The position numbers and the translations under genes are program-made. From NCBI GenBank assembly GCA_010015585.1, contig ML975151.1: a stretch of 64,000 bases of DNA; one strand, written 5' to 3'. Every line of letters begins with the position of its first letter. The stretch's first letter is position 1. The notes under the pieces are model-generated. The model ran no database searches, was not told where the DNA came from, and was given only the letters and a program-made list of their open reading frames with translations. Of this stretch, positions 31,412 to 54,633 are shown one piece after another. This stretch comes from Eremomyces bilateralis CBS 781.70 (Eukaryota).

Positions 31412-33227
31412 ATGTCACTTCCTAAGGTCTTTCTTAGCTCTCTACTATTGCTTCCTGTTATTATATTCGCCGGCAAGTGCCCGGATCTTGCTGGAGACTT
31501 GAAGCAGAAGTTGTCGTCTGGGGTGACAATTGAGAGCAACGATCCTACGGTAACACGATGGAGCGAATATGGAGCTCCAAAACCCGCATTTGTCGTCAAT
31601 GTTGCGGCCGAGAAAGACGTTGCAGCCACAGTAAGAGCCATCCTCTGTTTCACGTCTCTACTCCTTATAAAGATGAATGGGGACTTCGTATTTCTGTCAG
31701 CGGATCAACCCCTTGCCGGGCTGCATAGGGAACTTCTTTCTCGCGATCAAGAGCTTCCGAAGTATACCTATATCCAGTCGCATTATCGAGGCCGTGCAAC
31801 TGTCGAGTTTAAGACTTGCTTCGCTGAAGAACTGCTCGATAAAATCAGGAGAGGAAGCGACAGTTGACCCGGCAGGCATCGTGGAAGACTGTTACTCGTG
31901 ACCAGACCTTATTCTGACATGGATGACCAGGTTAAATATGCCGTTTCTAAGAATATCCAATTCTTAGCGCAAGATGGAGGCGCAGGATGGGCGAAGACTT
32001 CCACGATTGATAATTGCGATGTTGTGATCAACATGCGGAAACTGAACCAGGTGACTGTGAGCGGCGACAAAACCACACTTACACACGGAGGCGGTGCGAT
32101 CACATCCGAAGTTATCGACGCTGCCTATGCAGCAGGCGTTCAAGTCATCAGTCCCAATTGCAACTGCGTTGGCAATATGGGTGCGTACCTTGGTGGTGGA
32201 TATTCTCGGTTAGCCGGCAAGTACGGGTTAGGCGTGGACAACCTGCTCTCCGTCAACATGGTCAACGCAGACGGTGATCTTCGCACGGTCACAGAAAAGA
32301 GCGATCCGGCCCTGTGGTGGGCTATCCGTGGCGCAGGACCAAACTTTGGCGTCGTCACCAGTGCTACGATTAAGGCGTACGAAGTCCCACAGGAGAAGAA
32401 CACCGCGTGGCTAGGGGGCCTCATCTTCACCCAAGATAAGATTGAAGCCTTGGTGACGGCGATTAACAACCTGAAACTTCAATCGCAGATGGCAATTTTC
32501 CTGTATTACGCGACCTCGGAGGGGGAGCCCAATGTCATTACGTTCCCTTTCTGTGCGGGTTGCACTGCGGAGGAAGGAAAAAAACTATTTGCATCGATAT
32601 ACGCACTCGAACCTGTGGCCGATACAACTGCCGTCACTCCTTTCAACGAAGTCAACGCTGGCGGCGATACGTTTTGCGAGTTTGGAGGCCGTAAACCTGC
32701 CTATGGCTCGGGGATGGCAAAATTGGACCCCGCAACTTGGAGAGGGATTTGGGATGACTACGTTGCCTGGCTGAAGAATCCTGGAACCGAAGCTAGTACC
32801 ATATTGATGGAAGCGTACAGCATGGATAAAGCAAGAAGCATATCGACGAACTCTGCGTCGTTTCCGCACCGAAATACGATCAACTTCCATGGAGTCGCCC
32901 TGCCGTGGTACACTGATGCCGCGCTTGACGGCGAAGCGGAGTCGTTTGCCAACAAAGTGAGGACCCGATTGAGGGCTACGGATGGTCTAGGAAAGGACAG
33001 CTCGTGAGTTTTCGCATGGCATATACACGCACTGGGGAGGTGAATAACCTGTGAACAGTTACATTAACTTTGCTCATGGGGATGAATCTCTTGAAATAAT
33101 CTATGGCGACAGCCTCAGCAAACTCAAGGCCACGAAGGCTGCCAATGACCCAAAGAACGTTTTCAATCAGTGGTTTCCACTTTCGAAGGGCCGCTCCAAC
33201 CAGGCTCCTGCTACTGATGAGGCATGA
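31412..33227 (+). CDS. Secreted FAD-linked oxidoreductase (BBE-like / FAD_binding_4)
   Basis: Signal peptide, CVGNMGAYLGGG, YGLGVDNLLS, LWWAIRGAGPNFGVVTS, and BBE tail YINFAHGDE...DPKNVFNQ. Introns ~31631-31930 and ~33004-33058. Confidence 0.9.
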
Positions 33228-33879
33228 ACGGTTCGGATGAATGTGGATATCCTTATTTTGTACAGTTTTGGCGCTTAGGACTGGCTAGGATAGCCTGGGT
33301 ATGTCATGCTTTCACTTTTTTGCAGGCCAGGCTTTTGAATAGCATGCCCACCATTACTTACCAAGTACGAGACGAGCGCATTCCTCGGCAAGGTAGAATT
33401 TCCCGCTTTGCAGTCTAATATAACGTCAAGACACCACCATGCAAACGCTTAACCTTTGTGAGATACGTGTGATAATAGACGGAATGGTCGATCGGTGGCC
33501 ATCTATGCTTATACCAAACGGTCTCTCTGACTGGGGCGAGGACCAAAAGTATAGCTGCATATCCCAATTAAGATACAGGATCGGTCTGCTGAAGTTGAAA
33601 TATAGACGGTGCTACTTCAAAAAATCCTCCCAAGCGCAATAGCAACGATGTACGCATGGTTTTTCAGAGACAGGAACCCAAGCTCGCATAATGGAGTATT
33701 CAGCAGTGGTACTATGAAAATAAGGCTTCATATGTTCCATGGCATCTTAGTGAGGCCTCCCAATAGACATTCTACTCCGTTCATATATCGAGAGGAAACT
33801 TGGAAAAATTGTACCCTGTAAAGAAAGAAAACCCGCTTGATAGCTAACCATAAACACGTAATCGGTCATGGAGGGGGGA

Positions 33880-35688
33880 CTATATATGTTCCCGCTCCCA
33901 GCGCATATCCCTGTGGACATGAATCGAATGAAGCGAGGGTGCGGTACCTCGACTCATCCGGCTGTATTCACCCTGCTCTTCTTGAACTCTTTCATCCTCC
34001 CCTTTTACCCCTCTGAGCACTGACCAGTGACGGCGATCTGCGCTGCTAGCAACTTCATCCTCAGGAGAGAAGTCTAGCTTCGGACTGGGGATTGTCGTGG
34101 AGTTCAAAGAGTTATGCAATGTCGCAGACGAACTAGTGTTGTTTGTTTCGGTCACGGTCGCGTGATACAGGGCGCCGAGTTCCAGATCCGAACCTTTATC
34201 GTCATCCATTGAACTGTTCCTGGCCTTGTCAGATGAAGGAGTGGGAGAGTTGCGCGAGGTTCCATCTATCCTATAACTAGGCTTCTGTGCATCGGCTGTA
34301 AGGTTTCCAAACGAACTGCCTTTTGATGTGCTTCTTCGTGAACCGCCAGTAATGGAGAGAGGAAGCCATTTCAGTAGGACAGGTCTCAGTGTTGGGAGAC
34401 AAGCTGAAATACAAGATAGGGAGCCCTCGATCGTGGACCAGTAAAATACTGGAGTGGTGTAATCTGGAAACGTATGTTAGGAGAGCTATTGCGAAAATCG
34501 ATACTCTGCATCTTACAAGTTACATCGTCGAAGTGGACCATCAGATCCCTGCCAACTTGAATGAAGACGATGAGTCGAGCGAGTGACGCAGCAACAACAC
34601 TGTTAATACCATTAGCTGCCACGCTCCAAAAGTTCTTCCTGAGATACTAACCAGCCACCAAGGAGAAACATGCCACCAACAGCAACCTTCTGTTGCAGAG
34701 GCAGCCTGAGATTCCAGACCATCGGCAGCGGCAGCGCCAAGATGATAAAATCTGTTACAGCATCGGTGACACTGATCGCCCAGTAAAACGAAACGACGTC
34801 CACGCAATAGTTTGCGTATTCATATTCGAACTTCGTCCATATTACTGATATCGGGATGCATTGGCATAGATCGGCAACGAGGAAGCCCAGGGCCCAGACC
34901 AAAACCACGCCAATCATCACGTCGACAACAGTCTGGAATGGTTTTGTGACGAAAATACGCCGATACAGAAAAAGGACAGAGAGTTTGCATATTCCCAAGA
35001 TCGAGAGATTTAGGAGGTGGATAACAATCTTCATCTGTAGTTGACGCCAGTTCAATCAGCTTTGTCCTGCATGGGCACAACTTATGATGAGTTGGCCAGA
35101 AACCTTGACGGATGACAAAAGAGCGCAGCGACAGCCGGAATGCGAAGACACCGTGGCTATCACGAATATAAACCGAGAGACAGATCAAAGCAGCTCAAAG
35201 GCAGCTGAACCCATTCCAAACTTAAAATATCCCTTGATGGCCGCAGGAAATAGCTTACCTTTTCGTAATTGACCAACTCCCGATGCATAATCAGTTGTCC
35301 ATCAGGGCCAAACACTTTGCTTTGATGCGATCCCAATTCTCCATGTATGGCATCTGCTCTGAACGTTAGCAATTACTCAACTGAGTCGAGAGAGTAAAAC
35401 CCACCAGCGATCAGAACTGTTCCTATCGCAAGGTTGAATATCTGAGCCAAAATAGTGCTGTCAGCATCATCTCATCCATGGACTCGTCCATCTAATAGCG
35501 AGCCGCGTCTCTTGGATGTTATGAACATATAGACGTACCACTGCGGGAATGATAAGCCAGTCGTCAACCTTGAATGGCGCTCGAGTAAGACGCCTGGCGT
35601 AGAAGCGAAGGAGAACAAAAGGTATTGGCAAAGCCCCAAAAATGGCACCCAGCGCAATTACCTGACCCTTCGAGTACCCAGCAGTCAT
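33880..35688 (-). CDS. Pth11-like rhodopsin-domain integral membrane protein (CFEM-less)
   Basis: VLLRFYARR...DDWLI, KLSVLFLYRRIF, CQCIPIS, TDFIILALPLPMVWNLRLP...K...GMFLLG. Multiple introns. Confidence 0.85.
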
Positions 35689-36917: not shown

Positions 36918-38429
36918 CTACATATCCACGGGTTTTGTTTCCTCTGGCTGCCAGACAGCTTCGATGAACCCAAGAGCAGAGCCTTCAGGCGTCCATGCAT
37001 TCAACATTTTGAATCGCGGGTCCGTCATTGCGAACAACCCCTTCCACTCGCCGAGTTCTCGTTCCCTGGAATTTAAAATCTCGATCTGTGTTATGTCAAC
37101 TACCCTACGCGGAGTCAGTCCATCCAAATGTTACAGCTTCTGTTCATACTGACCGTGCTCTCGTCTCGCTCCACCACGAAACAGTCCCAGGTTCCGGCAG
37201 AACATAGTCGTTGATTAAGATTCGTGCCCCAGGCTTCAAAGCGGGGATCAAGTGCTTCAAAAGTTGCGCGGCATTGCTATCTGCATACCCGTGCATGATC
37301 CATCGGAAGTAATAAATATCCGCGTCCTTGACTGGTTGCTCAGTAAAGAAGTCGTGCGACATAAACTTCACACGGCTGGCCCATTCTTCATCCGGAAGTG
37401 CGGGAACCGATTCAATGATCATAGGAAGATCCTGAATGATGAAGTTGATATCACCAAATTCTTTCGCCAATGCAATTGGGATGGAGCCATGCGAACCACC
37501 GATATCGACAATGGAGGCAGCTGGTGGGAGGGAGCGCCAAGGATACCCTTTCAGCACATGGTCTGCACTGTATGTTGGATTCGCGCTATATGCACCCATC
37601 GAGTTTGCGAACCGCATACCCCGGTTGGGCTCCGCGGCCAGGACGTGGTAGATAGAAGAAGTCGAGTTATTTGCCAACGTGAACCCCTGAGAGAAATGAG
37701 TAGGTTCCAAAAGACAAGGTTAGTGGGGTGTCGATACCGTCTCATGCGGGAGATCCGACTTTTGCCATTTCTGAAGTGCATCAACAGTCTATTCTGGAAT
37801 TATCAGTTTTCTGCTGAAGCAGAAGGAGAACAGCCAAGGAGCACTCGACTTTGGTAGCGGCTGGCCAAAGATCTTCCACCGAGACGGCAAGGAAGTCACG
37901 CATCTGCTCGTCTTCGAGAAGAACCCTGGAGACAGCATTGTGAGCAACCATTCCAGGTTGGGGCTCTATAAAGAGTCTTCTCAGAATGGCATGGCGGAGA
38001 AGCCGTTGAGCAACATGCTCGTGTATGCCACACGAGGCAGCAAGCTCAGCATAGGAGATTTTCTTGTCAATGGGAATCCGGTTTGCGATCCCATATCGAA
38101 TGATAGCTTGCGAACTGATCAAGTCGTTGTGCTAAAGGGCCAGTTACCATACTGATCAGAATATAAACCGTCGTCTTCGGCGATAAGCTTACATGCTCGC
38201 CCATGACTTGGATGAGTTCTCGTGGTCCGATCAGCAGATCGTGCAGCTCCTTTGTTGCTGATAGGACTGTTTCCCGAGATTTTCTCAAATCTCTTGAGTC
38301 TGCATTGGACAGCCAATCTTGCGCGTTCACATCCCATGAGGGAGGTGGGCAGCCCTTGGCTTCCAGACAACTCTCAATGACGTCGACATTGTCCAAAATG
38401 CTCTGGGCAAGAGATCGGAGGGATGACAT
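36918..38429 (-). CDS. SAM-dependent O-methyltransferase (Methyltransf_2, secondary-metabolism type)
   Basis: N-terminal dimerisation region (ISYAELAASCG...RLLRHA...VAHNAVS), IVDIGGSHG, QDLP, HDFFTEQPVKDADIYYFRWIMH and ERELGEW. About 4 introns and the frame appears intact. Confidence 0.92.
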
Positions 38430-40061: not shown

Positions 40062-40782
40062 ATGGTGTTCGCATTCTTGAACAACAAGACGCAGTCATAT
40101 TCAAAGCTTGAAACAGGCGAAAATGGCGAAGAATCAGCTACTCACCAGTCACACCAAACTTTTGGACGTTGGAGAGCCGTCGTTGGAGTTCTTGTCCTCG
40201 TTTGTATTTCCGCTGCCACTGGGTTCCTCACTGCAAAGTGGTGTGACTCTGGTCCAAAACACTATGGCGAGTCTGTTCTCCTCCGTAAGTCTGAAAATGT
40301 CACTACCTATACAAACCCTCTAAGGCATATCAGCACCATCGGGTTCCATCACCACAGTAATGAAATACAACCGAACGTTTTCGGATCCACCATCTGAAGA
40401 CACTTCCCAAGCTTGGAACGGGATCTATCCAAAAGGAGTCGGATTTGTTCAGCACCCAACCCTCGCGCCTGAGCCTTCAGGCCTCTCTGTTTTCCATCAA
40501 CTCCATTGTCTGGACGCTCTGAGGATTGCTTATTATACCGCGCTGCAAGGCCATCCTTCTCATCCAACCTCACATGCCGATCATAACGAACATGATGACC
40601 CCCACCATGTGCGGCACTGTTTTGACTATATCCGCCAGAGCCTTATGTGTCATGCGGACACTAACTTGGAGCCTGTGGATCCAAAACTTGGAGGCACCAC
40701 AGGTTGGGGAAGTCCTAAGACGTGTCGAGACTATCATTCCGTGAAACAATGGGCTAAACATTGGATGGCAAGAAAGGAGTGA
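40062..40782 (+). CDS. DUF3328/UstYa-family oxidase #1 (223 aa)
   Basis: N-terminal TM helix, intron 40285-40333, twin HxxHC motifs FHQLHCL and HVRHCFDYIRQSLMCHADTNLE, and GWG...CRDY. Confidence 0.93.
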
Positions 40783-41220
40783 TTGGAATTTTCTTTGCGT
40801 TTAGGGTATTCAAGAATATAATTTGATGAATCCATCAATCCTATGCAAGTACAATAGCCGTAATGGAAATGAACATGTATCTTCAGAACCATGCGATTAA
40901 TACTAATGCTGTGCTCGGTAAACCTCTATAATCGCAGCAAAGCAGTAGTACATAGACGGCCAAGGGTGTAATAATCTCATTGTTGAATGAAACATGATAT
41001 TTTATTTTCTACCCTTGCTCATCTCGAGTTATGAAGTATAAATCCCGAGCTCGCGCTCCTGAAGTGAATTAATCAGGAGAACAGAATCGCACATTCGTTG
41101 GAAATAAACGTCCACGAAGCTATTCCTTCAAACGATAAATCTAAATCATACGCACTCTGCGTACAGTGATCCAATGCCAACGCCAGTCATACATGCAAGC
41201 CCAAGCAAGAATTTGGACTC

Positions 41221-42069
41221 TCAGTTCTCCCCAGGCTGCAGAAGTAGGTTTGGTTCCAGCAGGTCTAACGATCGCTCCTTCACCCACCCCATCAGGTTGT
41301 CCATATTGGCACATGAGTGATACCCTGTATCCTCCGCGGCAGTAACCCACCCCTTACTAACATCCATCCAAGCAAAGGTGTTTAAACTTGTGTCCGCCCG
41401 ACACATGGTGCTGACACGGATGTTTTCGATGCAGTGGTCGACATGCACCTTATTCTCCACGTATGCTTCCGAGCCCACTGTCAGATTTGGGTAATAGAAG
41501 TCTTTGTATATCCAGTGTCGGATCTTCTTCAGGCAATGCAGTTCATGATGCATTCCTAGAAGCCCGATGTAGTCACCGCTGCCATCGGCTAGCTTCAGGC
41601 TGTCGACCTCCGCATACTGGAGATCTTTCGCAGACACGCGGATATTGACTCGATCAAACAGGCCATGCCATGCGTTGTCTAGCTCCGGGGACGGGTCTCC
41701 GACAAACGGGTTATGCGATAGCTTCACGGGAAGCTTTTTCTTCTCGAACTGGACGACTTTCGGGTCCTCTGCAAGTGAAGGGAAAAGATCAAGAGAGCGA
41801 CAGTGAAGGCCCCTTTGAGACAATTGGATATAGAGAAAGAGGAGCAGCAGAAGAGTGCAAAGACAAGTGAAGGCGAGTGCCCATATCGTCCAGATAGCCC
41901 GACGATATGCCCGGCGAAGACGCGTATGGGATTCCGGTTCGGTAGGATGGAAGTTTGTGTCTGGAAAATCCTGATAGACTTGCGGATAACGTGGAAGTGT
42001 ATCGAACGATGATGTCTCCAGGAGACCTTCCTTTACAGAATCATCGTCGTGGCTTAAGAATGGTGGCAT
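41221..42069 (-). CDS. DUF3328/UstYa-family oxidase #2 (282 aa)
   Basis: TM helix, FVGDPSPELDNAW, HHELHCLKKIR, HVDHCIENIRVSTMCRADTS and H-S-C near the C-terminus. Confidence 0.93.
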   Translation of the reverse strand: MPPFLSHDDDSVKEGLLETSSFDTLPRYPQVYQDFPDTNFHPTEPESHTRLRRAYRRAIWTIWALAFTCLCTLLLLLFLYIQLSQRGLHCRSLDLFPSLAEDPKVVQFEKKKLPVKLSHNPFVGDPSPELDNAWHGLFDRVNIRVSAKDLQYAEVDSLKLADGSGDYIGLLGMHHELHCLKKIRHWIYKDFYYPNLTVGSEAYVENKVHVDHCIENIRVSTMCRADTSLNTFAWMDVSKGWVTAAEDTGYHSCANMDNLMGWVKERSLDLLEPNLLLQPGEN

Positions 42070-43512
42070 CTTCGGGGCGGTAAGGTAGATTGGAGAATGA
42101 TGTGCCGTTCAAATCGGTCGATGATACGAAGGCAGTGGCTGGGAAGGCACTCGCGGATTCCAAGAACAGCTCAAGAGATGAAGGATTCCAGTCCAGGGGA
42201 GATATGAGCACGTATTTCCCATCGCCCGAGGCATGGAGATCCGATAATCTATGGAGGTTCAACCAGCAAGCCATATCAACAAATACTAACGTCAGGATAG
42301 CAAGATTAACCGACACACAGCAACTTGGACGATAACCCAGTTATTCCTTAGAGCTTACAAGGATGGATGGAGACGGAGAGGCTGAAGTCTGAACGGATTA
42401 TGATGATCCCGTGTTTGATGCTTCGAAGTTCGAGATGCATCGTGGAATTCGGACTCCGTTCATCGTGATGTGTCGTTGGTTTTCCCGTCGACCAGGATCA
42501 TCCAGTCACTCCGATTTTGTGTCATGCACGACAGTCGACCTCACCCGAACATTCATCCCTCTACCACAGTGAACTCATTCCTCTTAAGACGAATGCCAAT
42601 GAAGGCAAGTTTATCACAATTACCGCCTATCCAATTAGCATTCGATCAAGCCGTTTCAACGTTTCGTTCCGCTTGCCGTTGTGATCCCCACGGTCTTAGC
42701 GTAACTGTGAGAACCCGAAGAGGGCTGAGGGCATTCCGCAATGTGGAATTTCCCGAGAAGATGTTGAAACAGTGGAATAGGGAAGATACTCGTTCTAGAT
42801 TCCCCGATATGTTAGCCGGAACTCAACGTGATACGCTCCAGCTTTGGCTGCTAAATGGATGTCCCCCAGCCCTGATCCTGTCGCCCCAAGTGGCACATCT
42901 GAATCCTCCATTCTCCGATGGACGACGCATGGTCAAACTGAGGCTGATCTTTTCCATCTCATTTTTATGAACCTAGCTGGCCTATGAATACTTCCGTTCT
43001 TATTCGCTCCCCTAGTCCATGCTTTTTAGCGTTGCAAATGCCGCATCCCCGCTTAATGGATCCATCTAGCCACCTGATACAATTCACAATGGCTAAGAAG
43101 GCAGTAACCACTAGAGGGTTGATGCCGATCGCATTTGAATCTAACAGGATGTGACAGAGTCGCCTTCTCCGTCTCCATCCTAACAATAACCCACGCCTAT
43201 CTACGGAGTATTAAGGACCCCCCTGGAGGCGGCACTTGTACCTTGAAGAATGAGGGATTAAGACTAATACTTCCCTGTCCAATTTGTCCGTCAGAACCAA
43301 ACCGGGATTGCTGAGGTGGCAAACCGGTGCATATATGAGATAGATGCTCGCTGTTGTCATCTTCATTAGCCACCTGCATCTTCCTCCATATCGTCCACGT
43401 CTGCTGGCTGGGCTCCGATCAACGTCAACGGCTTTCATTCCAAGCAACACCCAAAACCCACCATCCTCAAGAACAATACCAACCAATCAGTCACTATATA
43501 CTTCTCCTTATC

Positions 43513-43992
43513 ATGAAGACTCAAGGTGTCCTCCTCTTGACTGCCGCCCTCTGTGGCAGTGCGGCTATCGCTGCTCCTGTTGCTGCCCCTGCCTATGACC
43601 CCTGTGCTGGGAAGGTCACGTTTGGCGTCTCCATGGGCTCAGTGGGCCATTGTATTCGCTCTGCCATCCCTTCCAAGCAAACGTTAGAGAAACGAGGAGT
43701 TGATGGCGACGATGCCGTCGTATATGCATGGAAGGTTCCGGAAGAGAAGGAGAAGCGTGAGGACGGCGATGATGCTGTCGTCTACTCCTGGAAAGTCCCG
43801 GAAGAGAAGGAGAAGCGTGAGGATGGTGATGATGCTGTCGTCTACTCCTGGAAAGTCCCGGAGGATAAAGAGAAGCGTGAGGACGGCGATGATGCTGTCG
43901 TCTACTCGTGGAAAGTCCCAGAGAAGGAGAAGCGTGAGGATGGCGATGATGCTGTCGTCTATTCCTGGAAAATTCCGGAGGAGAAAAACTAG
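43513..43992 (+). CDS. Kex2-processed repeat protein; putative dikaritin RiPP precursor (159 aa)
   Basis: Signal peptide MKTQGVLLLTAALCGSAAIA. Five KR-preceded repeats DGDDAVVY(A/S)WK(V/I)P with acidic/basic tails. Adjacent to two DUF3328 genes. Confidence 0.9.
   Translation: MKTQGVLLLTAALCGSAAIAAPVAAPAYDPCAGKVTFGVSMGSVGHCIRSAIPSKQTLEKRGVDGDDAVVYAWKVPEEKEKREDGDDAVVYSWKVPEEKEKREDGDDAVVYSWKVPEDKEKREDGDDAVVYSWKVPEKEKREDGDDAVVYSWKIPEEKN
43687..43989 (+). repeat. Coding tandem repeat, five units of ~57-63 bp
   Basis: Unit gagaagcgtgagga(c/t)gg(c/t)gatgatgctgtcgtcta(c/t)tcctggaaagtcccggaagagaag, with mostly synonymous variation between copies. Confidence 0.95.
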
Positions 43993-44419
43993 ACTCCAAC
44001 TTGTTGTGTTGACCATGGCGTTGGAGATGCGTATTGCTGGAGGGTTGGTTGTTCTGCGCGAATATCTGTGTTCGGGTCTTGGGAAGCGGAGCATATATTA
44101 CAACATTGAAGGATGTCCCGAATCTGTTCAGGGCTTACTTATTTCACTGTTCCTTACTTGCGTTAGTGGAAAATAGAACCATTTTTCGAAATGTACAAAT
44201 GAATCGATAAAAAGAATTTCCAGCTTTTACTTCCTCGTCGACTCAGTGGCTGCCCAATGCAGTCGAGTACAATGCAATATCACAATAACGAACTTATACT
44301 GGTTGGACGATGTAGTTGACATCTTGTAATAAGAGCACTCGGCCAAGGAGAAGGATATGAAATGGGACCATCAATAGAGAAGAGAATCGTCAAACTGGCC
44401 ATTATACTTGTATGTAATA

Positions 44420-46079
44420 TCAATCTTTTATAGCAGCTCTCACACCGAGAGCCGCACCTTCTGCTGCTTCGGTCACATCGAGTTCGCCCGTCAACGAGCC
44501 CCAGTGTTCCCAACCTTTTCTTATCGGTTTTCCTTCGGCTGTCCAAGCTTTGTTCCAAGCGAGGACTTGCGATACCAGACCTTCCAGCGTTGTCCAGCTG
44601 CCTTCATATTCCAATCCGCCATCATTTTTGCTTCGCCTGGCACTGGAGTCATCCCAAACTGCGTGTACTGAGGTGATGTAAAACAGACTCGGCACAAGAT
44701 ACAATTTTCCATCTCTGCCAAGAGGCGGAAGTTTAAGAGCAGCAGTGATTGTAGGATATCGAATTTGAAAGAGATAATACGCCTCAATCGGATACGATAT
44801 CAAGAAGGGCAGGATTCCAGGAATGTAAGGGAAGCTCACTGGAGAAACCGAAAGGGTTTCCAAAACTTTATACATGTCCCCAAAGGTAATGGAGGGGTTG
44901 GGATCGGTGACAGCGAATGTTTCTCCTCCAATGTCGGGCATCTGAGAAGACGCGGGTGGCGAGAGGAGGTCTATGAGGCGTGCTTCATATAGCAAGTGTG
45001 CAAGGGACACGTGCTGGACATGTACAAAGTTCTGTAGGATGTTGTGCAACCAGCTGACAACGTTAGCATAAAATTATGGACACCAAAATGGTAGAGACCA
45101 ACCTAGGGGATCCTCCATTTCGAAGCATTTGTCCTCCTTGAAGATCATCCTCGTCACCATATACAGCTACATGCTGTCAGCTCAGCCGCTTACAATCCGA
45201 ACCGATGACACTATACCATTGACAGGCCAAATGCAACCGGTCCGGAACCCACCGTCAGGATCATCGGCTCGTTGAACCAGTTTCTCGGCCTGAAACTTGG
45301 AGTATGCGTAGCAACCGAAAAATTCCTCAAGTTTAGAAAGATACAAGCTGGGCTCATGGTCGCACAATGGTTGAACAAAACGTGCAGGATACTTTTGCCA
45401 AGGCCACATCCAGAGCCCAGGTCGAGCTATGAGAACAGATCCAGAAGATGTCATGAGAAAGACCGATGCACCAACAGCCTTAGAGGCTTCGAGTGTGTTC
45501 TGAGTCCCGTGGATATTGATCCGTTCATATGGTCCCATGGTATCATGTGTCCGGTCAGTTGTTCTGACGATCGCGACAGTGTGAAACACTGTCAGGGGAA
45601 GTTTGGAAGCGCCATCATCCCAAGCGGTTGCAAAAGCGTGTGCAAGTGACTCTGGATCGGTCACGTCTACACTGATAAACCTGATTGCCTCAAGTCCTCC
45701 TTTCACAGGGGGTCTGATATCGAAATTGACAATTGTCCGTGAATCTTCTCCACGTTGGAGTAAGTGTCGGAGAATCCAACCTCCCACAAAACCTTATTCA
45801 CTTGATGAGCCTTGACCACCTGGGAACAAATGCTAGGTACTTACCTGAACCGCCAGTAACGACATACCTCCGACCGGTCCGAGGAGGTAAATGGTCTTTC
45901 AAGTCCAAAGTGCGGCCTTCTAGCCGCCTTGCGCACTCACGGATTTCCGTCGAGGTGAATCGGTGGGGACTAAGCTTCCGGGCTTCGTCTGGTAAGCTTG
46001 ACAATGCTCGGTTCACCCTAAGCAGATAGATGAACAGAATAGTTAGAAGCAGCAAAAGAGGTCCGATTATCCACCCCAT
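44420..46079 (-). CDS. Extended SDR / 3-beta-HSD-like NAD(P)-dependent epimerase-dehydrogenase with an N-terminal membrane anchor
   Basis: VVTGGSG|FVGGW Rossmann motif, TVFHTVA, NIHGTQN, TSSGS and YAYSK catalytic motif. Three introns restore the frame. Confidence 0.85.
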
Positions 46080-47156
46080 GGTGTCGAATGGTTGTGTTAA
46101 CCTCACTGGTCCGATCACAATGGAAGGAGTAGGTGATAGTATGCACTTCGAATCTTTCTAGACTGGATGACGATAAAACCGAGCGGTTGAACTCAATATC
46201 TGACAATGTAAATACAACGCAATCAGAGCCCAAGGTCCACCGTACCGTAGGTTCTTTTCATTGAAACTGGATTATTCAGACAGTAGCCTACCTTGTCGGT
46301 TCAAACGAAGAGTCCTGCAAATTATAACCGTGTTGAATTGAGATAATTCCGGTCTCCCGATTCCTTTTCCCGTCATATCAACGTGAGGTACATTGTCCAG
46401 GATCATCGTTCTGGACAGGACCCGATTGGTTGACGCTCTCAGGTGAGTCCAATTGGCCGAGGCGGATGTACGATTGGGTATTGCGTGGTTAGACAGCCAT
46501 CGATCGCATGAAATCGATCCCAGTGAGGAGAATTCATATGAAAGCGGCGGGATTTCCCAATTCATGGCTGGTCGGGTTCGGGGCTTCGTGCATCTTAAAT
46601 TTTCAAAGGTTCGAATTTGATGAAAGGACTCCCTGTCAGCTTACTCAGCGGTACAGTGGTCGGGACCTTCACGCTCGACACTCGACAGAGATAGAATGAA
46701 TCCTAGCACGTGTAAGCTAAGCCTAGAGAGGAAAACACTCTCAACCGGAAGAAGACAAAAGTCCCTCGCTCCTTTCGACTTTTCCGATATCCTATCGTGG
46801 CTTTAGGAACCAATCAGAGTACAGGTAGCGTACCAACAACGGGCTTTCTTGTTTGGACTGCAGTGTTCCTGTTATGCTTTCTTTGCATACAGGATTACCT
46901 GTCCGGCACATGTACAGGGTTGTACTATGGCGTTTTGTTATGGTTGAATGAACTATACTTGGATGTAGACGGGAAACTCACTGCGTCGATAGCATGATAT
47001 GCTATAGAGTCGTCATCTGCTCGTTGTAAAAGAAGCGGACCTGGTATCAACTTCTCCCTGAACAATTGTTCTGTTCTATCGATTAGAAAGAATAGGCATA
47101 CCCCAGTCCCCCCTTCCAAGATGTCTATCTTTATTTCAATGTACAAAGAAAAGAAC

Positions 47157-48203
47157 ATGGCACTTCCGCTTGTGCCGCCGAACGAGGGTGGAACTTACAT
47201 TATCACAGGGGCAAACACAGGACTTGATTTCGAGTGTCCTCAAAACTTGGTTCGCCTGTCGGCGGGTAGGGTAAAACTCGCCGTCCGCTCCATAGATAAA
47301 GGTGAGAGCGCAAAGGTGAGGATCGAAGCAGAACCGGATGAAATGGAGTTGCGGAAGTAGAGCCTCTCGACCTCACCTCCTACGACTCAGTCAAGGGATT
47401 CGCCAAGAAGGTCCGGAGTTGGATCGAATCGACGCGGTCCTCGAGAATGCGAGTATTGCAGTGGATTCTTATACAATCTCAGAAGGGTTTGAGACGAGCA
47501 TAGCTGTGAATGTTGTCAGCACCATACTGTTGGCTCTGTTGGTCTTGCCGAGACTGCAAATCAGCGGGAAAAGCATGGTCTCACACCACATTTGGTGGTC
47601 ACAGGAAGCGGTGCAGCGTTATCCGCAAAGGGGCAGCTGGAGAAGGTGGAGGGCAACATACTGAAAGGACTGACCTACAACACTATGGGTGAAAGGTGAT
47701 ATTCTTTCCTCGAGTTGCCCGCCTAGAACAAATCTTCTTAACAGAACCCAAAGATATTTCGTCACCAAGCTTTTGCAACTATACGCGGTCCAAGAGCTCG
47801 CCGCCCTCAAACCGTGTTCGGAGACCGGAGTAGTCATAAGCTGTGTCAACCCCGGATTCTGCAATACCGGATTGAGTCGACACGCCCGCTTCACAAAACG
47901 GATCGAGATGAATTTGATGCAGTTCCTCGTGGCGACAACTGCGGATCAGGGCCGCAGGACCATATTGCACGCAGCCACTGCAGGGAAGCAGAGTCACGGC
48001 AAATATTTGTCCAATTGCGAAGCTGCAGAAGAGTAAGTTCTTCCACGCCATACCTGATTGCAATACTCATTTCACGGACCAGAGATCCGCTCCTATCATT
48101 TGTTACAAACGAGGCTGGTATGGTGATGCAGAAGCGGGTGTGTGACAGCATCTCAAGGAAATTGAATGAAATTCAACCCAGGTGTTTCCAAGAGGATCGT
48201 TAG
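47157..48203 (+). pseudogene. Frameshifted classical short-chain dehydrogenase (retinol-DH-like)
   Basis: TGANTGLD (Gly replaced by Asp), LAVRS...KGE, LDLTSYDSV, NVVST, YFVTK and VNPGFC occur in different reading frames without intron signals at the shifts (~47340, ~47420, ~47570). Confidence 0.75.
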
Positions 48204-52390: not shown

Positions 52391-54192
52391 TCAAGGAGGA
52401 GGATATATGCACTTAGGGTGTAATTCCTTCAATGTGTCCAATTTCCTTTGCAAGATTTGTCTTTGAATTGGCTTGGTGTTCGGGAAGGTAAACAGAAACC
52501 GAGTGAGAAAGAGGAAGTCATCGAGTCTTTGGTCGGACTCCTGATGCGTCGGGGCAGGGACATGGATAATCACGTCCGCAATTGTATCGCAGATCTCGAA
52601 TAGCTTGCGGAATATTCCCGTGCCGTGAATACCGATGGCCTTGGGATCCATGCTGGACACGAATATGCGCAGCTGTTGACTGAGCATCACTGGCATTTCT
52701 AGGCTCATATAGCTTCGGGAAGGCTCCGGGGAAAGACTGAGCAAACATTTGCTCATGGCTAACTGCCACAATAGGGTTCTAAGCCACTGTCGCGTAATTA
52801 TGAGGTCGGCTTGCTGCATTGGACTGAGAACATGGCTATCGCGTTCGGAATCGCGCAAGTCGTCATCCAACTCCCGGTGCTTTTGGTCAAACCATACTCC
52901 ATTGACGATGGAGCGCGAGTCTTGCCAGTATCGGAGGAAGTCGGAATCCAAGAGCCGGAATATCTTGATGATTTGAATGAAGCCTTCATTTACACCCTGA
53001 GGTAGAGAGCTATCATATTCTGGAAGATTCCGAAGCTCGGTGAGCACCGTGGGACGGTAGTCAACTGCCGCATGATCAGTAAATCTTCTCTTGTGAGCCA
53101 TGTCGTTCTATTCTGTCGATACTCTTTTCCTGCCCACACCACTTTAAGCAGATTTTTGCTATAAAGGTGATCCCCGATGTAGAGTGTACCAATGCATGGT
53201 CTTCTTTCATTGCCCTGAACCTTAAAATACATCAATATCTCATTTATGGGCGGACTACTCAACAATGGGACACTAATGAGAGGACTCTCACCTATTGCTA
53301 TGAATCGTTCGTGGATAAAGACCTCCCAATACAATCTTTGTTTCCTTGCTCTTTCTGACAAACTCATTTTCGCCACAATATCATCATTCTCAATGCGCAT
53401 CATATGTAACAGCGTTGCGGCTTCTCGCTGGTAGAAGAATGCAAGGTCCATCTTCTGAACACTTAGGAGGCAGATCTCCAAGAAAATGCACGTGAGTACC
53501 TTGTGGACTGTTGCATGATGGTCCAGTTCCATTGGAGGTTTGATCCTGATAGCATGGTTAACCAGAGCAACAATCCTCTCTGACACGGCCGGAGACTCGT
53601 CCAAAGGAGATCTTTGAGCAAGATTGATTGTGACAGCAGCATACGCATGACAGAATGCAGCATATTCACGACTTGTGCTCATCTTCGCGATTGTATCCCG
53701 CACTTCAGGTTCCGACAATATTGGATGGACAGGATATACTGCGGTCAGGTAGTCGGGGACCAGACCGAAGAAGAAGGGGGTGTCCCATTGTGTACATGGT
53801 GCTAATGGAGCGACTGCGGTTTGTGAATGCGTCGAAGGAGAATGGGCTGAAGGGTCCGAGGATGAAGTTGATGGCACAGTCGATGGTGTGAATGCAGCCG
53901 ATGCAGGACTAACCGGACTCGCCGACGCTGCTTTCAGAATGGTAGAGGTAGCCGGCTGTAATGAAGGGGACGTTTGTTGGATGCTGGTCTCTTGCTTGTA
54001 TGCGCTGATCACACTGCCCCTTCGCAGAGTCTTTGATCGCGGCTTTGCTTTGATGTCGGAGTATATGCATTTGAGGTTCAGATGAGAGCATTGTTGGCAT
54101 CTCTCTACGTCTCCATTGCATTTAACTTTACGAAGCTTGCAGGCGTTACATGCGCGCGCAACGCGATGCGGTTTCGCAGTTAATTCATCCAT
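52391..54192 (-). CDS. Zn(II)2Cys6 transcription factor (AmyR/MalR-like middle region)
   Basis: ACNACKLRKVKCNGDVERCQQCSHLNLKC, then RLYWEVFIHER, QQADLIITRQWLRTLLW and IHGTGIFRKLFEI. Intron ~53291-53066. Confidence 0.9.
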
Positions 54193-54633
54193 TGTGCGCA
54201 AGCCGTCCCCCTTCGATGGCCTGAGGCTTCATTCCGTAAATGCCCACCGAGAATGGGATCGAATTTATAAAACACCTATGACATGGTGGCATTAAAACGT
54301 CAAAACTTTGTGTAAACGATAGTATGATCGCCTCAGTAATTAACTCAGAGCAGTTAGGTTGTAATTTGTATCGTACAGAAGTCGAGGGGCTGGAGTCGAG
54401 TGGAGAAATGAGTTGGCGCAGAGTGCTCCGCCCTGTCCGATCACCATGCATGTTGTGATCAAAGCTCAGAGCTTCGTGTAACCACCATTCTCGGATCTCG
54501 AGAGTTTCCTACTCGGACATCGAACGTGCTATACAATTGAAGCATGGTGTCATTAACTCCCGCTTGATCGTGAACCGGATTTTAATGTCCATGGCATCGG
54601 ACACCTACCTCCCTCTTGCGGGTCACATCCGAG

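What the first reader, a model, noticed from the sequence alone, without database searches (positions are those of the whole stretch)
43687..43992. Tyr-x-Trp core repeat AVVY(S/A)WK(V/I)P unlike the dikaritin cores I know
Seen: five units, GVDGDDAVVYAWKVPEEKE, EDGDDAVVYSWKVPEEKE, EDGDDAVVYSWKVPEDKE, EDGDDAVVYSWKVPEKE and EDGDDAVVYSWKIPEEKN. They give three core variants (YAWKVP x1, YSWKVP x3, YSWKIP x1). Y, W, K and P are invariant while codon third positions vary. Established: the known cores YAIG/YVIG, YVIPID, FYYTGY and GLKLAF lack Trp and sit between Kex2-delimited spacers. Inference: two oxidases could install a Tyr-Trp (i,i+2) or Tyr/Trp-to-aliphatic crosslink, possibly bicyclic, yielding three congeners. 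The exact core boundaries cannot be read from sequence.
Basis: partly seen in the sequence, partly recalled or inferred. Interest (0 to 1): 0.8.

Follow-up and report, generated by a model that had tools for sequence, protein, structure and literature searches.

The report
Tyr-x-Trp fungal RiPP precursor family
This is a transcribed fungal gene for a secreted five-repeat peptide whose invariant tyrosine and tryptophan, and two copper-oxidase genes always found beside it, mark an unstudied but widespread family of ribosomal cyclic peptides.

Summary
Window 43513-43992 (+) encodes a 159-aa protein with a hydrophobic N-terminus, a pro-region and five KR-delimited units DGDDAVVY(A/S)WK(V/I)PE. Nine of the 11 variable codon columns differ only synonymously.

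It lies 1.4 kb from two divergent UstYa/DUF3328 genes, each with both HxxHC motifs. An FAD-linked oxidase, a Fung_rhodopsin-domain membrane protein, an O-methyltransferase and a membrane-anchored NAD-dependent reductase lie nearby. No tyrosinase, P450 or peptidase was found. Spliced RNA contigs cover the cluster.

The precursor belongs to an unnamed family. 145 of 162 D-x-D-[DE]-anchored units in 63 retrieved short proteins carry Y at +7 and W at +9. Named members come from Aspergillus, Talaromyces, Cudoniella and lichen fungi, all labelled hypothetical. In 4 of 5 independent lineages orthologues of both UstYa genes sit next to the precursor.

Best reading: a new core variant of the UstYa-dependent, Kex2-processed (dikaritin-type) RiPPs, with a Tyr/Trp side-chain macrocycle and three congeners. 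The bond type cannot be read from sequence. No product or paper was found.

The parts
43513..43992 (+). Precursor gene, 159 aa, single exon. Hydrophobic N-terminal signal-like segment (about residues 1-21), a pro-region with two Cys (to KR 60-61), then five core units.
   Evidence: ORF. Translation and KR map. RNA run X3 holds 0.80 of the sampled words of 43300-44300. Its contigs give depth in both bins over the gene and end with adapter sequence at 44177. The signal peptide is inferred from the sequence; no predictor was run.
43696..43758 (+). Unit 1 (residues 62-82), core AVVYAWKVP, ends in KR.
43759..43818 (+). Unit 2 (residues 83-102), core AVVYSWKVP, ends in KR.
43819..43878 (+). Unit 3 (residues 103-122), core AVVYSWKVP, ends in KR.
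43879..43935 (+). Unit 4 (residues 123-141), core AVVYSWKVP, one spacer residue shorter, ends in KR.
43936..43992 (+). Unit 5 (residues 142-159 plus the stop codon), core AVVYSWKIP.
40062..40782 (+). UstYa/DUF3328 gene 1, 223 aa, two exons with intron 40285-40333. N-terminal hydrophobic helix. HxxHC motifs at residues 129 and 166.
   Evidence: Pfam PF11807, E 2.5e-25. The intron is skipped by an RNA contig, GT..AG. Gene model and motifs.
41221..42069 (-). UstYa/DUF3328 gene 2, 282 aa, no intron. One hydrophobic helix. HxxHC motifs at residues 175 and 209.
   Evidence: Pfam PF11807, E 4.7e-41. Translation. Unspliced RNA contig 41013-42398. Model. The protein collection holds the same 282-aa product (P0072).
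31412..33227 (+). FAD-linked (VAO/PCMH, BBE-like) oxidase, modelled at 486 aa with a hydrophobic N-terminus. Introns 31631-31930 and 33004-33058.
   Evidence: Pfam FAD_binding_4, E 8.5e-14. Best solved relative is 6-hydroxy-D-nicotine oxidase, E 5.9e-24. Joints; the 300-nt first intron rests on a 30-nt side only. Syntenic copies in the L001 group, and an N-terminal match in L015.
33880..35034 (-). Fung_rhodopsin-domain multi-pass membrane protein. The 5' end is not settled.
   Evidence: Pfam PF20684, E 1e-31. Introns 34464-34516 and 34600-34651. A syntenic copy lies in the L001 group.
36918..38429 (-). Class I SAM methyltransferase (Methyltransf_2), 429 aa, four introns, no signal-like N-terminus.
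   Evidence: Pfam, E 1.1e-18. Best solved relative 8pha_A, E 6.4e-27, then GedA and LepI. Joints, model. Not found in the related loci.
44420..46079 (-). NAD-dependent epimerase/3-beta-HSD-like reductase, modelled at 502 aa with an N-terminal hydrophobic helix. Convergent with the precursor.
   Evidence: Pfam 3Beta_HSD and Epimerase. Introns 45054-45102, 45167-45216 and 45791-45842. Model. Not found in the related loci, so cluster membership is uncertain.
52993..54228 (-). Zn2Cys6 transcription factor, a possible cluster regulator. The association is weak.
   Evidence: Pfam Zn_clus, E 3.4e-8. No synteny support.

Best explanation
The gene encodes the multi-core precursor of an uncharacterised, conserved family of UstYa (DUF3328)-dependent, Kex2-processed fungal ribosomal peptides, that is, dikaritin-type in the broad sense.

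Inferred route:
1. The hydrophobic N-terminus takes the protein into the secretory pathway.
2. There, the lumenal domains of two membrane-anchored binuclear-copper oxidases (UstYa-1 and UstYa-2) act on each of the five units. They are probably guided by the invariant acidic D-G-D-D motif followed by hydrophobic V-V.
3. They oxidatively tie the invariant Tyr to the invariant Trp two residues downstream.
4. The second UstYa and/or the conserved secreted FAD-linked oxidase adds a further oxidation: a second ring, a hydroxyl or a desaturation.
5. Kex2 cuts after each KR and exopeptidases trim the ends.
6. In this organism a methyltransferase may decorate the product.
7. Three congeners result, with cores Y-A-W-K-V-P, Y-S-W-K-V-P and Y-S-W-K-I-P.

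The bond I consider most likely is a Tyr phenol-O to Trp C-beta ether, by analogy with the Tyr(i)-to-residue(i+2) spacing of ustiloxin and phomopsin and with the Tyr-O to aromatic-residue C-beta ether of asperipin-2a.

Shown here: the repeat architecture, selection on the peptide sequence, family-wide Y/W invariance, conserved pairing with two UstYa paralogues and an FAD oxidase, and transcription.

Inferred: secretion, substrate recognition, every chemical step, core boundaries and bioactivity.

The confidence given (0.75) is for the general statement, a UstYa-modified RiPP precursor whose Tyr and Trp are the crosslinked residues. The specific ether bond I hold at about 0.35-0.4.
For: **Architecture.** Signal-like N-terminus plus five KR-bounded units.

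**Selection on the peptide.** Nine of the 11 variable codon columns in the core are synonymous only.

**Family.**
- A HMMER search of 1.84e9 representative proteins gave 49 hits at E<=1e-3 and 17 at E<=1e-10.
- I read 42 of the 49. The 7 proteins longer than 320 aa were not fetched.
- With further members, 56 of 63 short proteins have at least one D-x-D-[DE]-x3-Y-x-W unit.
- 145 of 162 anchored units carry Y+7 and W+9.
- In the 18-sequence alignment D, D, Y and W are invariant.

**Enzymes.** Both neighbours hit Pfam UstYa (E 2.5e-25 and 4.7e-41). Each has two HxxHC motifs and one N-terminal hydrophobic helix. That is the architecture shown for CctR to be a transmembrane-anchored, lumenal, O2-dependent binuclear-copper enzyme (PMC12435403, abstract and passages).

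**Synteny.**
- The 18 metagenome loci sort as follows: one lineage of 11 near-identical loci (97.5-99.99% identity), then L005, L013, L015, L014 (precursor only, 1.2 kb), L016 (not interpretable), and two false positives (L017, L018).
- Orthologues of both UstYa-1 (45-67% identity) and UstYa-2 (about 40-63%) lie directly upstream of the precursor in the L001 group, L013, L015 and the window.
- L005 shows UstYa-1 and then its contig ends. So 4 of 5 informative lineages have both.
- Cross-paralogue matches are only 25-35% identical, so the two paralogues are separately conserved.
- FAD-oxidase matches lie in the L001 group and L015. Fung_rhodopsin matches lie in the L001 group.
- In L010 and L005 the gene beyond the precursor is leucyl-tRNA synthetase, which marks the cluster edge.

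**Independent published annotation.** The Talaromyces islandicus member CRG89181.1 is listed as a Kex2-processed repeat protein with DUF3328 in its vicinity (Umemura 2020, PMC7329392, Table S2).

**Transcription.** Contigs of run X3 skip canonical introns in five cluster genes, while DNA run X1 does not. They also cover UstYa-2 and the precursor region.

**Chemistry precedent.**
- UstYa enzymes crosslink the Tyr side chain to an internal Ile in ustiloxins and phomopsins (PMC9233826, passages).
- They make a Tyr-phenol-O to C-beta ether in asperipin-2a at a dicopper site (PMC12186524, passages).
- That paper also reports that the unrelated plant copper cyclases (BURP-domain) depend on a recognition sequence with a hydrophobic residue flanked by charged residues. 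This resembles D-G-D-D-x-V-V here.
Against: - No product is known, and no chemistry can be read from sequence. The ether assignment is an analogy only.
- Hits were gathered by similarity to the query, and several are near-duplicates. Y/W conservation is therefore partly built into the sample.
- Exceptions exist: H-x-W in 3 of 3 units of P0042, Y-x-Y in P0036, S-x-W in P0037, one F-x-W unit in P0009, and a different core in P0040. An obligate Tyr-O ether would not tolerate F or H at that place.
- Two genes named in the original five-gene dikaritin definition (as quoted in PMC12048977) were not found: a tyrosinase, and a cluster peptidase or transporter. ORF scanning in an intron-bearing genome can miss split genes.
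- The methyltransferase and the reductase are not seen in the other loci, so they may not belong to the pathway.
- The RNA evidence comes from assembled contigs of one run. The piece over the precursor itself was not among the rows shown.
Confidence: 0.75

Rival explanations
1. TMC-95-type chemistry. The Tyr and Trp of each unit are joined aryl to aryl (C-C) into a Tyr-x-Trp macrocycle. The Trp is further oxidised (beta-hydroxyl, oxindole) by the second UstYa and the FAD oxidase. The preceding Val may be converted to an alpha-keto acyl cap.
For: TMC-95A-D, from the ascomycete Apiospora montagnei, are built from Tyr, Asn, a highly oxidised Trp, an N-terminal 3-methyl-2-oxopentanoyl group and a C-terminal propenylamine. 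They have a phenol-oxindole ring junction, that is, a Tyr-x-Trp ring preceded by a branched-chain residue (PMC8707610, passages; C-C Tyr-Trp link in PMC11002830, passages).

The family has the same Y-x-W spacing. An aliphatic V or A sits before Y in 95 of 100 units picked by a pattern that already required Y and W.

Two oxidases plus an FAD oxidase are conserved. The nearest solved relative of the FAD oxidase is an amine oxidase, 6-hydroxy-D-nicotine oxidase.

No paper in the library links TMC-95 to a gene cluster or a RiPP origin.
Against: - No unit in any retrieved member has Asn between Y and W. The residues seen there are T, A, S, G, P, K and I.
- No member from Apiospora was found. This carries little weight, because small ORFs are often not called.
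- In the passages I read, UstYa enzymes are credited with C(sp3)-H chemistry (hydroxylation, halogenation, ether macrocyclisation), not aryl-aryl coupling.
- The subscription literature was not searchable.
Confidence: 0.13
2. The crosslinks run from the aromatic residues to the conserved aliphatic residues rather than Tyr to Trp. Examples are Tyr phenol-O to Val C-beta (epichloecyclin or cyclopeptide-alkaloid style) and/or Val C-beta to the Trp indole (moroidin/stephanotic-acid style). One link per UstYa would give a bicyclic product.
For: The two positions before Y are strongly hydrophobic across the family: V, F, A or I at -2, and V, A, M or T at -1.

In epichloecyclins the linked Ile is N-terminal and the Tyr internal (PMC9233826, passages).

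Plant copper cyclases make Tyr-O to Leu-C-beta bonds (PMC12186524, abstract).

Two separately conserved UstYa paralogues fit two different bonds.

Tolerance of H or F in place of Y in a few members is easier to explain if Trp is the key partner.
Against: - Position -1 is Ala in a third of units, and position -2 is Ala in the P0005 group. Ala is a poor C-beta partner.
- The i/i+2 spacing of Y and W is the strictest feature of the family, which points to these two acting together.
- The moroidin-type comparison is recalled and was not checked in any call.
Confidence: 0.2
3. The repeats are released by Kex2 as linear, unmodified secreted peptides (pheromone-like or signalling peptides), and the UstYa genes beside them serve another substrate.
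For: The architecture is that of alpha-factor-type Kex2-processed repeat proteins. In the Umemura survey 78% of such proteins have no DUF3328 neighbour (PMC7329392, abstract and passages). The ESM Atlas feature search placed an MF_alpha cluster third at 0.84, below the level that counts as more than a lead.
Against: - Orthologues of the same two UstYa paralogues sit next to the precursor in 4 of 5 lineages. No other candidate substrate gene lies between them.
- Almost all pheromone-annotated repeat proteins lack DUF3328 neighbours (PMC7329392).
- No MF_alpha Pfam match was found.
Confidence: 0.05

Closest known systems
Ustiloxin / phomopsin precursors (UstA, PhomA) and their UstYa-family oxidases: dikaritins in the strict sense
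   Same: - Signal peptide plus KR-delimited multi-core repeats.
- More than one UstYa/DUF3328 gene with double HxxHC next to the precursor.
- A methyltransferase in the cluster.
- A Tyr whose partner residue lies at i+2.
- Acidic residues ahead of the core.
   Different: - The partner at i+2 is Trp, not Ile.
- No tyrosinase, peptidase or transporter was found in the cluster.
- An FAD-linked oxidase and a Fung_rhodopsin-domain membrane protein are conserved instead.
- The invariant D-x-D-D lies three residues upstream of Tyr.
- The cited core sequences of UstA and PhomA are recalled, not checked here.
Asperipin-2a (AprA precursor, AprY)
   Same: A tyrosinase-free UstYa pathway. AprY is a copper- and O2-dependent DUF3328 cyclase that makes Tyr-phenol-O to C-beta ethers onto an aromatic residue (passages in PMC12435403 and PMC12186524). 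This is the best chemical analogy for Tyr-O to Trp-C-beta.
   Different: Asperipin needs a single DUF3328 gene (PMC7329392, passage), whereas here two paralogues are conserved. Its core has no Trp. Sequence relatedness of AprY to the two enzymes here was not tested, because no reference sequence was available to the tools.
TMC-95A-D (Apiospora montagnei proteasome inhibitors)
   Same: The only fungal natural product I can point to with a Tyr-x-Trp macrocycle preceded by a branched-chain residue (PMC8707610).
   Different: - The middle residue is Asn, which is not seen in this family.
- The bond is aryl-aryl, with an oxindole.
- Its genes are unknown in the library searched.
- The link to this family is a hypothesis only.
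Kex2-processed repeat proteins (KEPs) of Umemura 2020
   Same: This gene fits the KEP definition. One family member (CRG89181.1) is in that catalogue with DUF3328 nearby.
   Different: That member is filed there as type 0, meaning stand-alone with no homologues. Two other members (OJK01928.1, RAK95911.1) are not among the rows of their strains. The family as such is therefore not recognised there.
Plant burpitides (BURP-domain copper cyclases)
   Same: They work alike: copper- and O2-dependent side-chain crosslinking of Tyr/Trp-containing multi-core precursors, guided by a recognition sequence next to each core (PMC12186524).
   Different: An unrelated protein family in another kingdom. This is a functional analogy only.

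Membership tests
Dikaritin-type RiPP cluster (five-gene definition of Ding et al., as quoted in PMC12048977) | Precursor with an N-terminal leader or signal and repeated core/recognition motifs bounded by Kex2 sites | tested here: met
   159-aa ORF with a hydrophobic N-terminus, five units and five KR sites. The signal peptide is inferred by eye; no predictor was run.
Dikaritin-type RiPP cluster (five-gene definition of Ding et al., as quoted in PMC12048977) | Multiple DUF3328/UstYa proteins with the double HxxHC motif | tested here: met
   Two genes, Pfam PF11807 at E 2.5e-25 and 4.7e-41. HxxHC at residues 129/166 and 175/209.
Dikaritin-type RiPP cluster (five-gene definition of Ding et al., as quoted in PMC12048977) | Tyrosinase | tested here: not met
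   No tyrosinase hit among 126 ORFs of at least 110 aa across the window, nor among 144 ORFs of 50-183 aa between 35045 and 49650. A gene split into small exons could be missed. The same source notes that functional clusters lacking some of these genes exist.
Dikaritin-type RiPP cluster (five-gene definition of Ding et al., as quoted in PMC12048977) | Methyltransferase | tested here: met
   Methyltransf_2 gene at 36918-38429. No match to it was found in the related loci, so the feature is not family-wide.
Dikaritin-type RiPP cluster (five-gene definition of Ding et al., as quoted in PMC12048977) | Transporter or peptidase in the cluster | tested here: not met
   None lies between 31 and 54 kb. 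The nearest MFS transporter (8301-10186) and gamma-glutamyltranspeptidase (12254-13120) lie behind housekeeping genes.
Dikaritin-type RiPP cluster (five-gene definition of Ding et al., as quoted in PMC12048977) | Tyr-derived side-chain macrocycle in the product | not testable with these tools
   Needs MS and NMR of the product.
Y-x-W precursor family defined here (D-x-D-[DE]-x3-Y-x-W repeats beside a UstYa pair) | At least two KR-bounded units with D-x-D-[DE], then Y at +7 and W at +9 | tested here: met
   5 of 5 units in the window. 145 of 162 units family-wide.
Y-x-W precursor family defined here (D-x-D-[DE]-x3-Y-x-W repeats beside a UstYa pair) | Orthologues of both UstYa paralogues adjacent to the precursor | tested here: met
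   Found in the window, the L001 group, L013 and L015. L005 is cut by its contig end after UstYa-1.
TMC-95-type peptides | Tyr-Asn-Trp tripeptide ring with an aryl-aryl bond and an oxidised Trp | tested here: inconclusive
   The Y-x-W spacing is present, but Asn is never seen at x. Bond type is not testable. No producer genome was available.
Alpha-factor-type mating pheromone precursors | MF_alpha / MF_alpha_N domains, and no DUF3328 neighbour | tested here: not met
   No Pfam match for the precursor, and two UstYa genes lie adjacent. The Atlas feature score of 0.84 to an MF_alpha cluster is below the lead threshold.

The most novel reading that the evidence does not exclude
The Y-x-W family is the genetic basis of TMC-95-class chemistry. 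On this reading, fungal Tyr-x-Trp macrocycles with an oxidised tryptophan are ribosomal peptides made by a conserved pair of copper-dependent UstYa oxidases plus a secreted FAD oxidase. The locus in this window would make Lys-containing analogues. That would extend UstYa chemistry from C(sp3)-H ether formation to aromatic Tyr-Trp coupling. It would also open the unexplained biosynthesis of the TMC-95 proteasome inhibitors to direct test.
Probability: 0.13. Interest if true: 0.85.

Novelty: new variant of a known kind. Interest (0 to 1): 0.62.

Why it matters
Only a handful of UstYa-dependent fungal RiPP scaffolds have been solved chemically: ustiloxins, phomopsins, asperipin-2a, victorin and epichloecyclins. 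None of these uses tryptophan, as far as the passages I read and my recall go.

This locus provides a clean, transcribed, compact gene set of precursor, two UstYa genes and an FAD oxidase. The set recurs in Eurotiomycetes, Leotiomycetes and lichen-forming Lecanoromycetes, with an invariant Tyr-x-Trp pair. It is therefore a well-defined target for heterologous expression.

Such work could reveal a new copper-enzyme crosslink involving Trp. It could show why two paralogous UstYa enzymes are needed. It could also test whether Tyr-x-Trp natural products such as TMC-95 are ribosomal. The family-wide variation at four core positions offers a natural substrate-scope series.

Tried and rejected
**Literature.**
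- String searches for the core and for family cores found no relevant paper: the 2 hits and the 9 hits are unrelated chance strings.
- Searching six accessions and locus tags of family members gave 0 papers.
- Topic searches found no paper on a Trp-containing UstYa RiPP.
- TMC-95 searches found no biosynthesis paper.
- The library lacks most subscription journals. Nagano et al. 2016 was not looked up, PMC12143957 (Chiang et al. 2025) was requested and is not held, and Ding et al. 2016 was seen only as quoted in PMC12048977.
- The Umemura supplements hold accessions only, not sequences.

**Searches that gave little.**
- The word-indexed homologue search with the single protein found only 1 hit among 154 candidates. 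The exhaustive HMMER search was needed to see the family.
- No whole genome is held for the window.
- Earlier findings of this scan: nothing on this genome or sequence, and two unrelated word hits.
- ESM Atlas: no hit at 0.9 or above, and the structure rows are meaningless for a disordered repeat protein.
- NCBIfam: no informative hits for the precursor or either UstYa.
- PDB: no solved relative of UstYa-2, best E 0.59.

**Loci set aside.**
- L016 could not be interpreted. My frame extraction gave no repeat ORF and there were no Pfam hits.
- L017 and L018 are long ORFs with a single copy of the motif. They look like amidases by eye (not tested) and were dropped as chance pattern matches.

**RNA evidence.**
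- No listed holder run is on record as RNA. X3 was only guessed to be RNA; I treat it as RNA because its contigs skip GT..AG introns that the DNA run keeps.
- Contig depth (888.9 over UstYa-1) was not used to rank expression, as the tool warns.

**Other.**
- A weak adh_short hit (E 1.4e-3, 47320-47661, + strand) was rejected as a gene call, because the transcript there is spliced on the minus strand.
- I considered a complex-prediction job on a UstYa-1/UstYa-2 heterodimer and did not run it. A pass could not separate heterodimer from the family's known homodimer mode.
Full report
**1. The observation**

Window 43513-43992 (+) is an uninterrupted ATG-to-stop ORF of 159 codons. After a hydrophobic N-terminus and a 40-residue pro-region with two cysteines come five units. 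These are GVDGDDAVVYAWKVPEEKEKR, two 20-residue and one 19-residue unit with AVVYSWKVP, and a last unit with AVVYSWKIP.

Tandem Repeats Finder scores the array at 401 (period 60, 4.7 copies, 85% matches). Nothing comparable exists elsewhere in the 64 kb.

Across the five copies of the 14 codons DGDDAVVYxWKxPE, 11 columns differ at the DNA level. Nine of those are purely synonymous. Only the residue between Y and W (A/S) and the one after K (V/I) change. The peptide sequence, not the DNA, is being kept. The antisense and +1 ORFs over the array are by-products of the repeat.

**2. The neighbourhood**

I scanned stop-to-stop ORFs against Pfam: 126 ORFs of at least 110 aa over the whole window, and 144 ORFs of 50-183 aa between 35 and 49.7 kb. 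This gave, around the precursor:
- an FAD_binding_4 oxidase;
- a Fung_rhodopsin-domain membrane protein;
- a Methyltransf_2 methyltransferase;
- two UstYa/DUF3328 genes (E 2.5e-25 and 4.7e-41);
- the precursor;
- a convergent NAD-dependent epimerase/3-beta-HSD-like gene;
- further on, DUF6601, a Zn2Cys6 factor and a HET-domain gene.

ATG5 and ornithine decarboxylase bound the region on the left. No tyrosinase, P450, peptidase or transporter was seen in the cluster.

**3. Transcription and gene models**

One public run (X3, coded) holds 0.80 of the sampled words of 43300-44300. When laid on 31000-48500, its contigs skip 49-300-nt segments with GT..AG (or CT..AC) ends in the FAD oxidase, the membrane protein, the methyltransferase, UstYa-1 and the reductase. 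The DNA run X1 reads straight through. X3 is therefore RNA, and these genes are transcribed and spliced.

The UstYa-1 intron (40285-40333) is the one I had predicted from the sequence. UstYa-2 is covered by an unspliced 1386-nt contig. Over the precursor, X3 has depth in both bins. A contig ends in adapter sequence at 44177, 185 nt past the stop codon.

Using the joints, the gene models are:

| Gene | Coordinates | Length | Notes |
|---|---|---|---|
| UstYa-1 | 40062-40782 (+) | 223 aa | HxxHC at 129 and 166 |
| UstYa-2 | 41221-42069 (-) | 282 aa | HxxHC at 175 and 209; the protein collection holds the same 282-aa product |
| Methyltransferase | 36918-38429 (-) | 429 aa | no signal-like N-terminus |
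| FAD oxidase | 31412-33227 (+) | 486 aa | hydrophobic N-terminus |
| Reductase | 44420-46079 (-) | 502 aa | N-terminal hydrophobic helix |

Both UstYa proteins have one hydrophobic helix ahead of the catalytic domain.

**4. A family, not a singleton**

The word-indexed search with the protein alone found one relative, P0001. It has two AVVYAWKVP units, 71% identity and the same two-Cys pro-region.

The exhaustive HMMER search of 1.84 billion representatives found 49 proteins at E<=1e-3 and 17 at E<=1e-10. I read 42 of the 49; the 7 longer than 320 aa were not fetched. A profile search and cluster look-ups added more.

Nearly all are short proteins with a signal-like start and 2-5 KR-bounded units of the form D-[G/A/S]-D-[D/E]-x-[V/F]-[V/A]-Y-x-W-x-x-[P]. 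Examples are DGDDKVVYTWAVPE, DGDDQVVYTWSLPE, DADDAVAYAWVVGP and DADELAAYGWGVPR.

In an 18-sequence alignment the two Asp, the Tyr and the Trp are the only invariant repeat columns. I then made a count that does not presuppose Y or W, taking every D-x-D-[DE] anchor in 63 short proteins. Of 162 units, 145 have Y at +7 and W at +9, and 56 of the 63 proteins have at least one such unit.

Caveats: the sample was collected by similarity to the query, and it contains near-duplicates.

Exceptions are informative: H-x-W (P0042, 3 of 3 units), Y-x-Y (P0036), S-x-W (P0037), one F-x-W unit (P0009) and a different core in P0040.

Named members are all 'hypothetical protein'. They come from:
- Talaromyces islandicus;
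- Aspergillus aculeatus, A. aculeatinus, A. brunneoviolaceus, A. fijiensis and A. ibericus;
- Cudoniella acicularis;
- the lichen fungi Letharia columbiana and L. lupina, Xylographa vitiligo, Varicellaria rhodocarpa and Acarospora aff. strigata.

The Lys after Trp is rare. It is seen in the window, in P0001 and in locus L013, whose four units carry the same YAWKVP core as the window's unit 1.

**5. Conserved gene pairing**

A pattern scan of metagenome contigs returned 18 loci. By pairwise blastn, eleven of them (L001-L004, L006-L012) are one population at 97.5-99.99% identity. L005 is a relative at 77%. L013 and L015 are separate. L014 is a 1.2-kb contig holding only the precursor. L016 could not be interpreted. 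L017 and L018 are long ORFs with one chance copy of the motif.

tblastn with the window's cluster proteins shows an orthologue of UstYa-1 (45-67% identity) immediately upstream of the precursor. An orthologue of UstYa-2 (about 40-63%) lies next to that, in the L001 group, in L013 and in L015. In L005 the contig ends after UstYa-1. Pfam confirms these as UstYa.

Matches between the two paralogues are only 25-35% identical, so two distinct enzymes are separately kept. Counting the window, 4 of 5 informative lineages show both.

The FAD oxidase recurs in the L001 group and, as an N-terminal match, in L015. The Fung_rhodopsin protein recurs in the L001 group. The methyltransferase and reductase do not recur. 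Beyond the precursor in L010 and L005 lies leucyl-tRNA synthetase, so the precursor marks the cluster edge there.

Two further observations agree. A UstYa-2 orthologue (P0073) and the precursor P0011 both come from a contig of 6806 bp; the lengths match but identity of the contig was not verified. Umemura's catalogue lists the T. islandicus member CRG89181.1 as a Kex2-processed repeat protein with DUF3328 nearby.

**6. How it most likely works**

*What is established.* DUF3328/UstYa enzymes are membrane-anchored with a lumenal catalytic domain. They are dimeric, O2-dependent binuclear-copper enzymes whose HxxHC(x)nHxxHC motif binds the copper. They perform hydroxylation, halogenation and macrocyclisation (PMC12435403, abstract and passages).

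In ustiloxins and phomopsins they tie the Tyr side chain to an internal Ile. Asperipin has two linkages from internal Tyr side chains (PMC9233826, passages). The asperipin bond is a Tyr-phenol-O to C-beta ether made at a dicopper site (PMC12186524, passage).

Dikaritin precursors are Kex2-processed in the Golgi (PMC9233826).

*What follows by inference.* The precursor enters the secretory pathway. The two UstYa enzymes act on each unit, with the invariant acidic D-x-D-D plus V-V probably serving as the recognition element. This compares with the 'hydrophobic residue flanked by charges' recognition sequences of plant copper cyclases.

The invariant Tyr and Trp at i/i+2, the same spacing I recall for Tyr and Ile in the ustiloxin and phomopsin cores, become linked. 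A second oxidation follows, by the other UstYa and/or the secreted FAD oxidase. Kex2 and exopeptidases then release three congeners.

I commit to Tyr-O to Trp-C-beta as the single most likely bond, at roughly 0.35-0.4. A tyrosinase-free cluster and an activated C-beta next to an aromatic ring parallel asperipin.

The broader statement is that this is a UstYa-modified Y/W-crosslinked RiPP precursor. I hold that at about 0.75. Core boundaries cannot be read from sequence.

**7. Rivals**

(a) *TMC-95-type aryl-aryl Tyr-Trp coupling with oxidised Trp.* TMC-95A-D consist of a 3-methyl-2-oxopentanoyl cap, Tyr, Asn, a highly oxidised Trp and propenylamine, with a phenol-oxindole junction (PMC8707610 and PMC11002830, passages). 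That is a Y-x-W ring after a branched-chain residue. The conserved set of two oxidases plus an amine-oxidase-like flavoenzyme would suit it. No biosynthetic paper was found. Against it, Asn is never seen at x, no Apiospora member was found, and aryl-aryl coupling is not among the UstYa activities in the passages I read.

(b) *Bonds from Tyr and/or Trp to the conserved Val residues.* See the rival entry for the evidence on each side.

(c) *Unmodified secreted peptides.* The conserved pairing with the UstYa genes makes this unlikely.

**8. Comparison and novelty**

The gene set meets three of the five features of the original dikaritin definition: a repeat precursor, multiple DUF3328 genes and a methyltransferase. 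It fails two as tested, a tyrosinase and a peptidase or transporter (definition as quoted in PMC12048977). The same source notes that accepted members also lack some of these.

I therefore file it as a new variant of the UstYa-dependent, Kex2-processed RiPP kind. What is new:
- a new core (Tyr-x-Trp);
- its own conserved acidic recognition motif;
- its own pair of UstYa paralogues;
- a conserved FAD oxidase.

No paper in the searchable library mentions these cores or accessions. The one catalogued member is filed as having no homologues.

Subscription papers could not be searched and may list such precursors. Nagano et al. 2016 on Aspergillus is recalled and was not looked up. Chiang et al. 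2025 was requested and is not held.

**9. Verdict**

This is a real, expressed and well-delimited biosynthetic locus.

It is not categorically new, because many UstYa-linked repeat proteins of unknown product exist: 1758 in the Umemura survey. It is, however, an unusually clean and widely conserved family with a Trp-containing core and a concrete, testable link to Tyr-x-Trp natural products.

Noticed in passing
window 38570-38611: Both DNA contigs of run X1 break here. Tiny contigs of depth 1443-2121 (against about 165 around them) pile up, and one contig in each run has an extra G behind 38584. This looks like a short dispersed repeat or homopolymer between the methyltransferase and UstYa-1.
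   Followed up: no
window 40062-40782: The RNA contig over UstYa-1 has a word depth of 888.9, against 15-76 for contigs over the neighbouring genes. The tool warns that contig depth cannot rank genes, so this is only noted.
   Followed up: no
window 45843-48500 (- strand): A spliced minus-strand RNA contig with introns 46925-46981, 47071-47198 and 47504-47674 runs on upstream of the reductase gene. No ORF there has a Pfam match. The only weak hit (adh_short, E 1.4e-3) is on the opposite strand. It may be an unannotated gene or a long 5' leader.
   Followed up: partly
relatives P0042, P0036, P0037, P0009: These are natural variants of the aromatic pair: H-x-W in all three units of P0042, Y-x-Y in P0036, S-x-W in P0037, and one F-x-W unit in P0009. 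They could serve as a natural test of which residue is the obligate partner.
   Followed up: partly
Aspergillus ibericus accessions RAK95910.1 / RAK95911.1: Family member RAK95911.1 is absent from the Kex2-repeat catalogue. The accession next to it, RAK95910.1, is listed there as a stand-alone repeat protein with DUF3328 nearby. This may be a second precursor in the same cluster.
   Followed up: no
window 43576-43695 and P0001: The pro-region between the signal-like segment and the first KR, with two Cys about 16 residues apart, is conserved between the window and P0001 but is absent from the other 16 aligned relatives.
   Followed up: no
window 8301-10186 and 12254-13120: A TRI12-like MFS transporter and a gamma-glutamyltranspeptidase lie about 30 kb upstream, behind housekeeping genes (eIF2B, Mnd1, ZNF598-like, ornithine decarboxylase, ATG5). 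Genes of these two kinds occur in the ustiloxin cluster by my recall. Here they are probably unrelated.
   Followed up: no
window 4914-5293: A run of 380 N, an assembly gap or masked stretch.
   Followed up: no
L017 1415-2980 and L018 615-1361: A long ORF (522 aa in L017) carries a single DGDDAVAYSWKLP with no repeats. This is a chance match to the search pattern and shows that the motif alone, without repeats and KR sites, is not diagnostic.
   Followed up: partly
window 49654-50910, 52993-54228, 54586-56244: DUF6601, a Zn2Cys6 factor and a HET-domain gene lie downstream of the cluster. Whether the Zn2Cys6 factor regulates the cluster is open.
   Followed up: no
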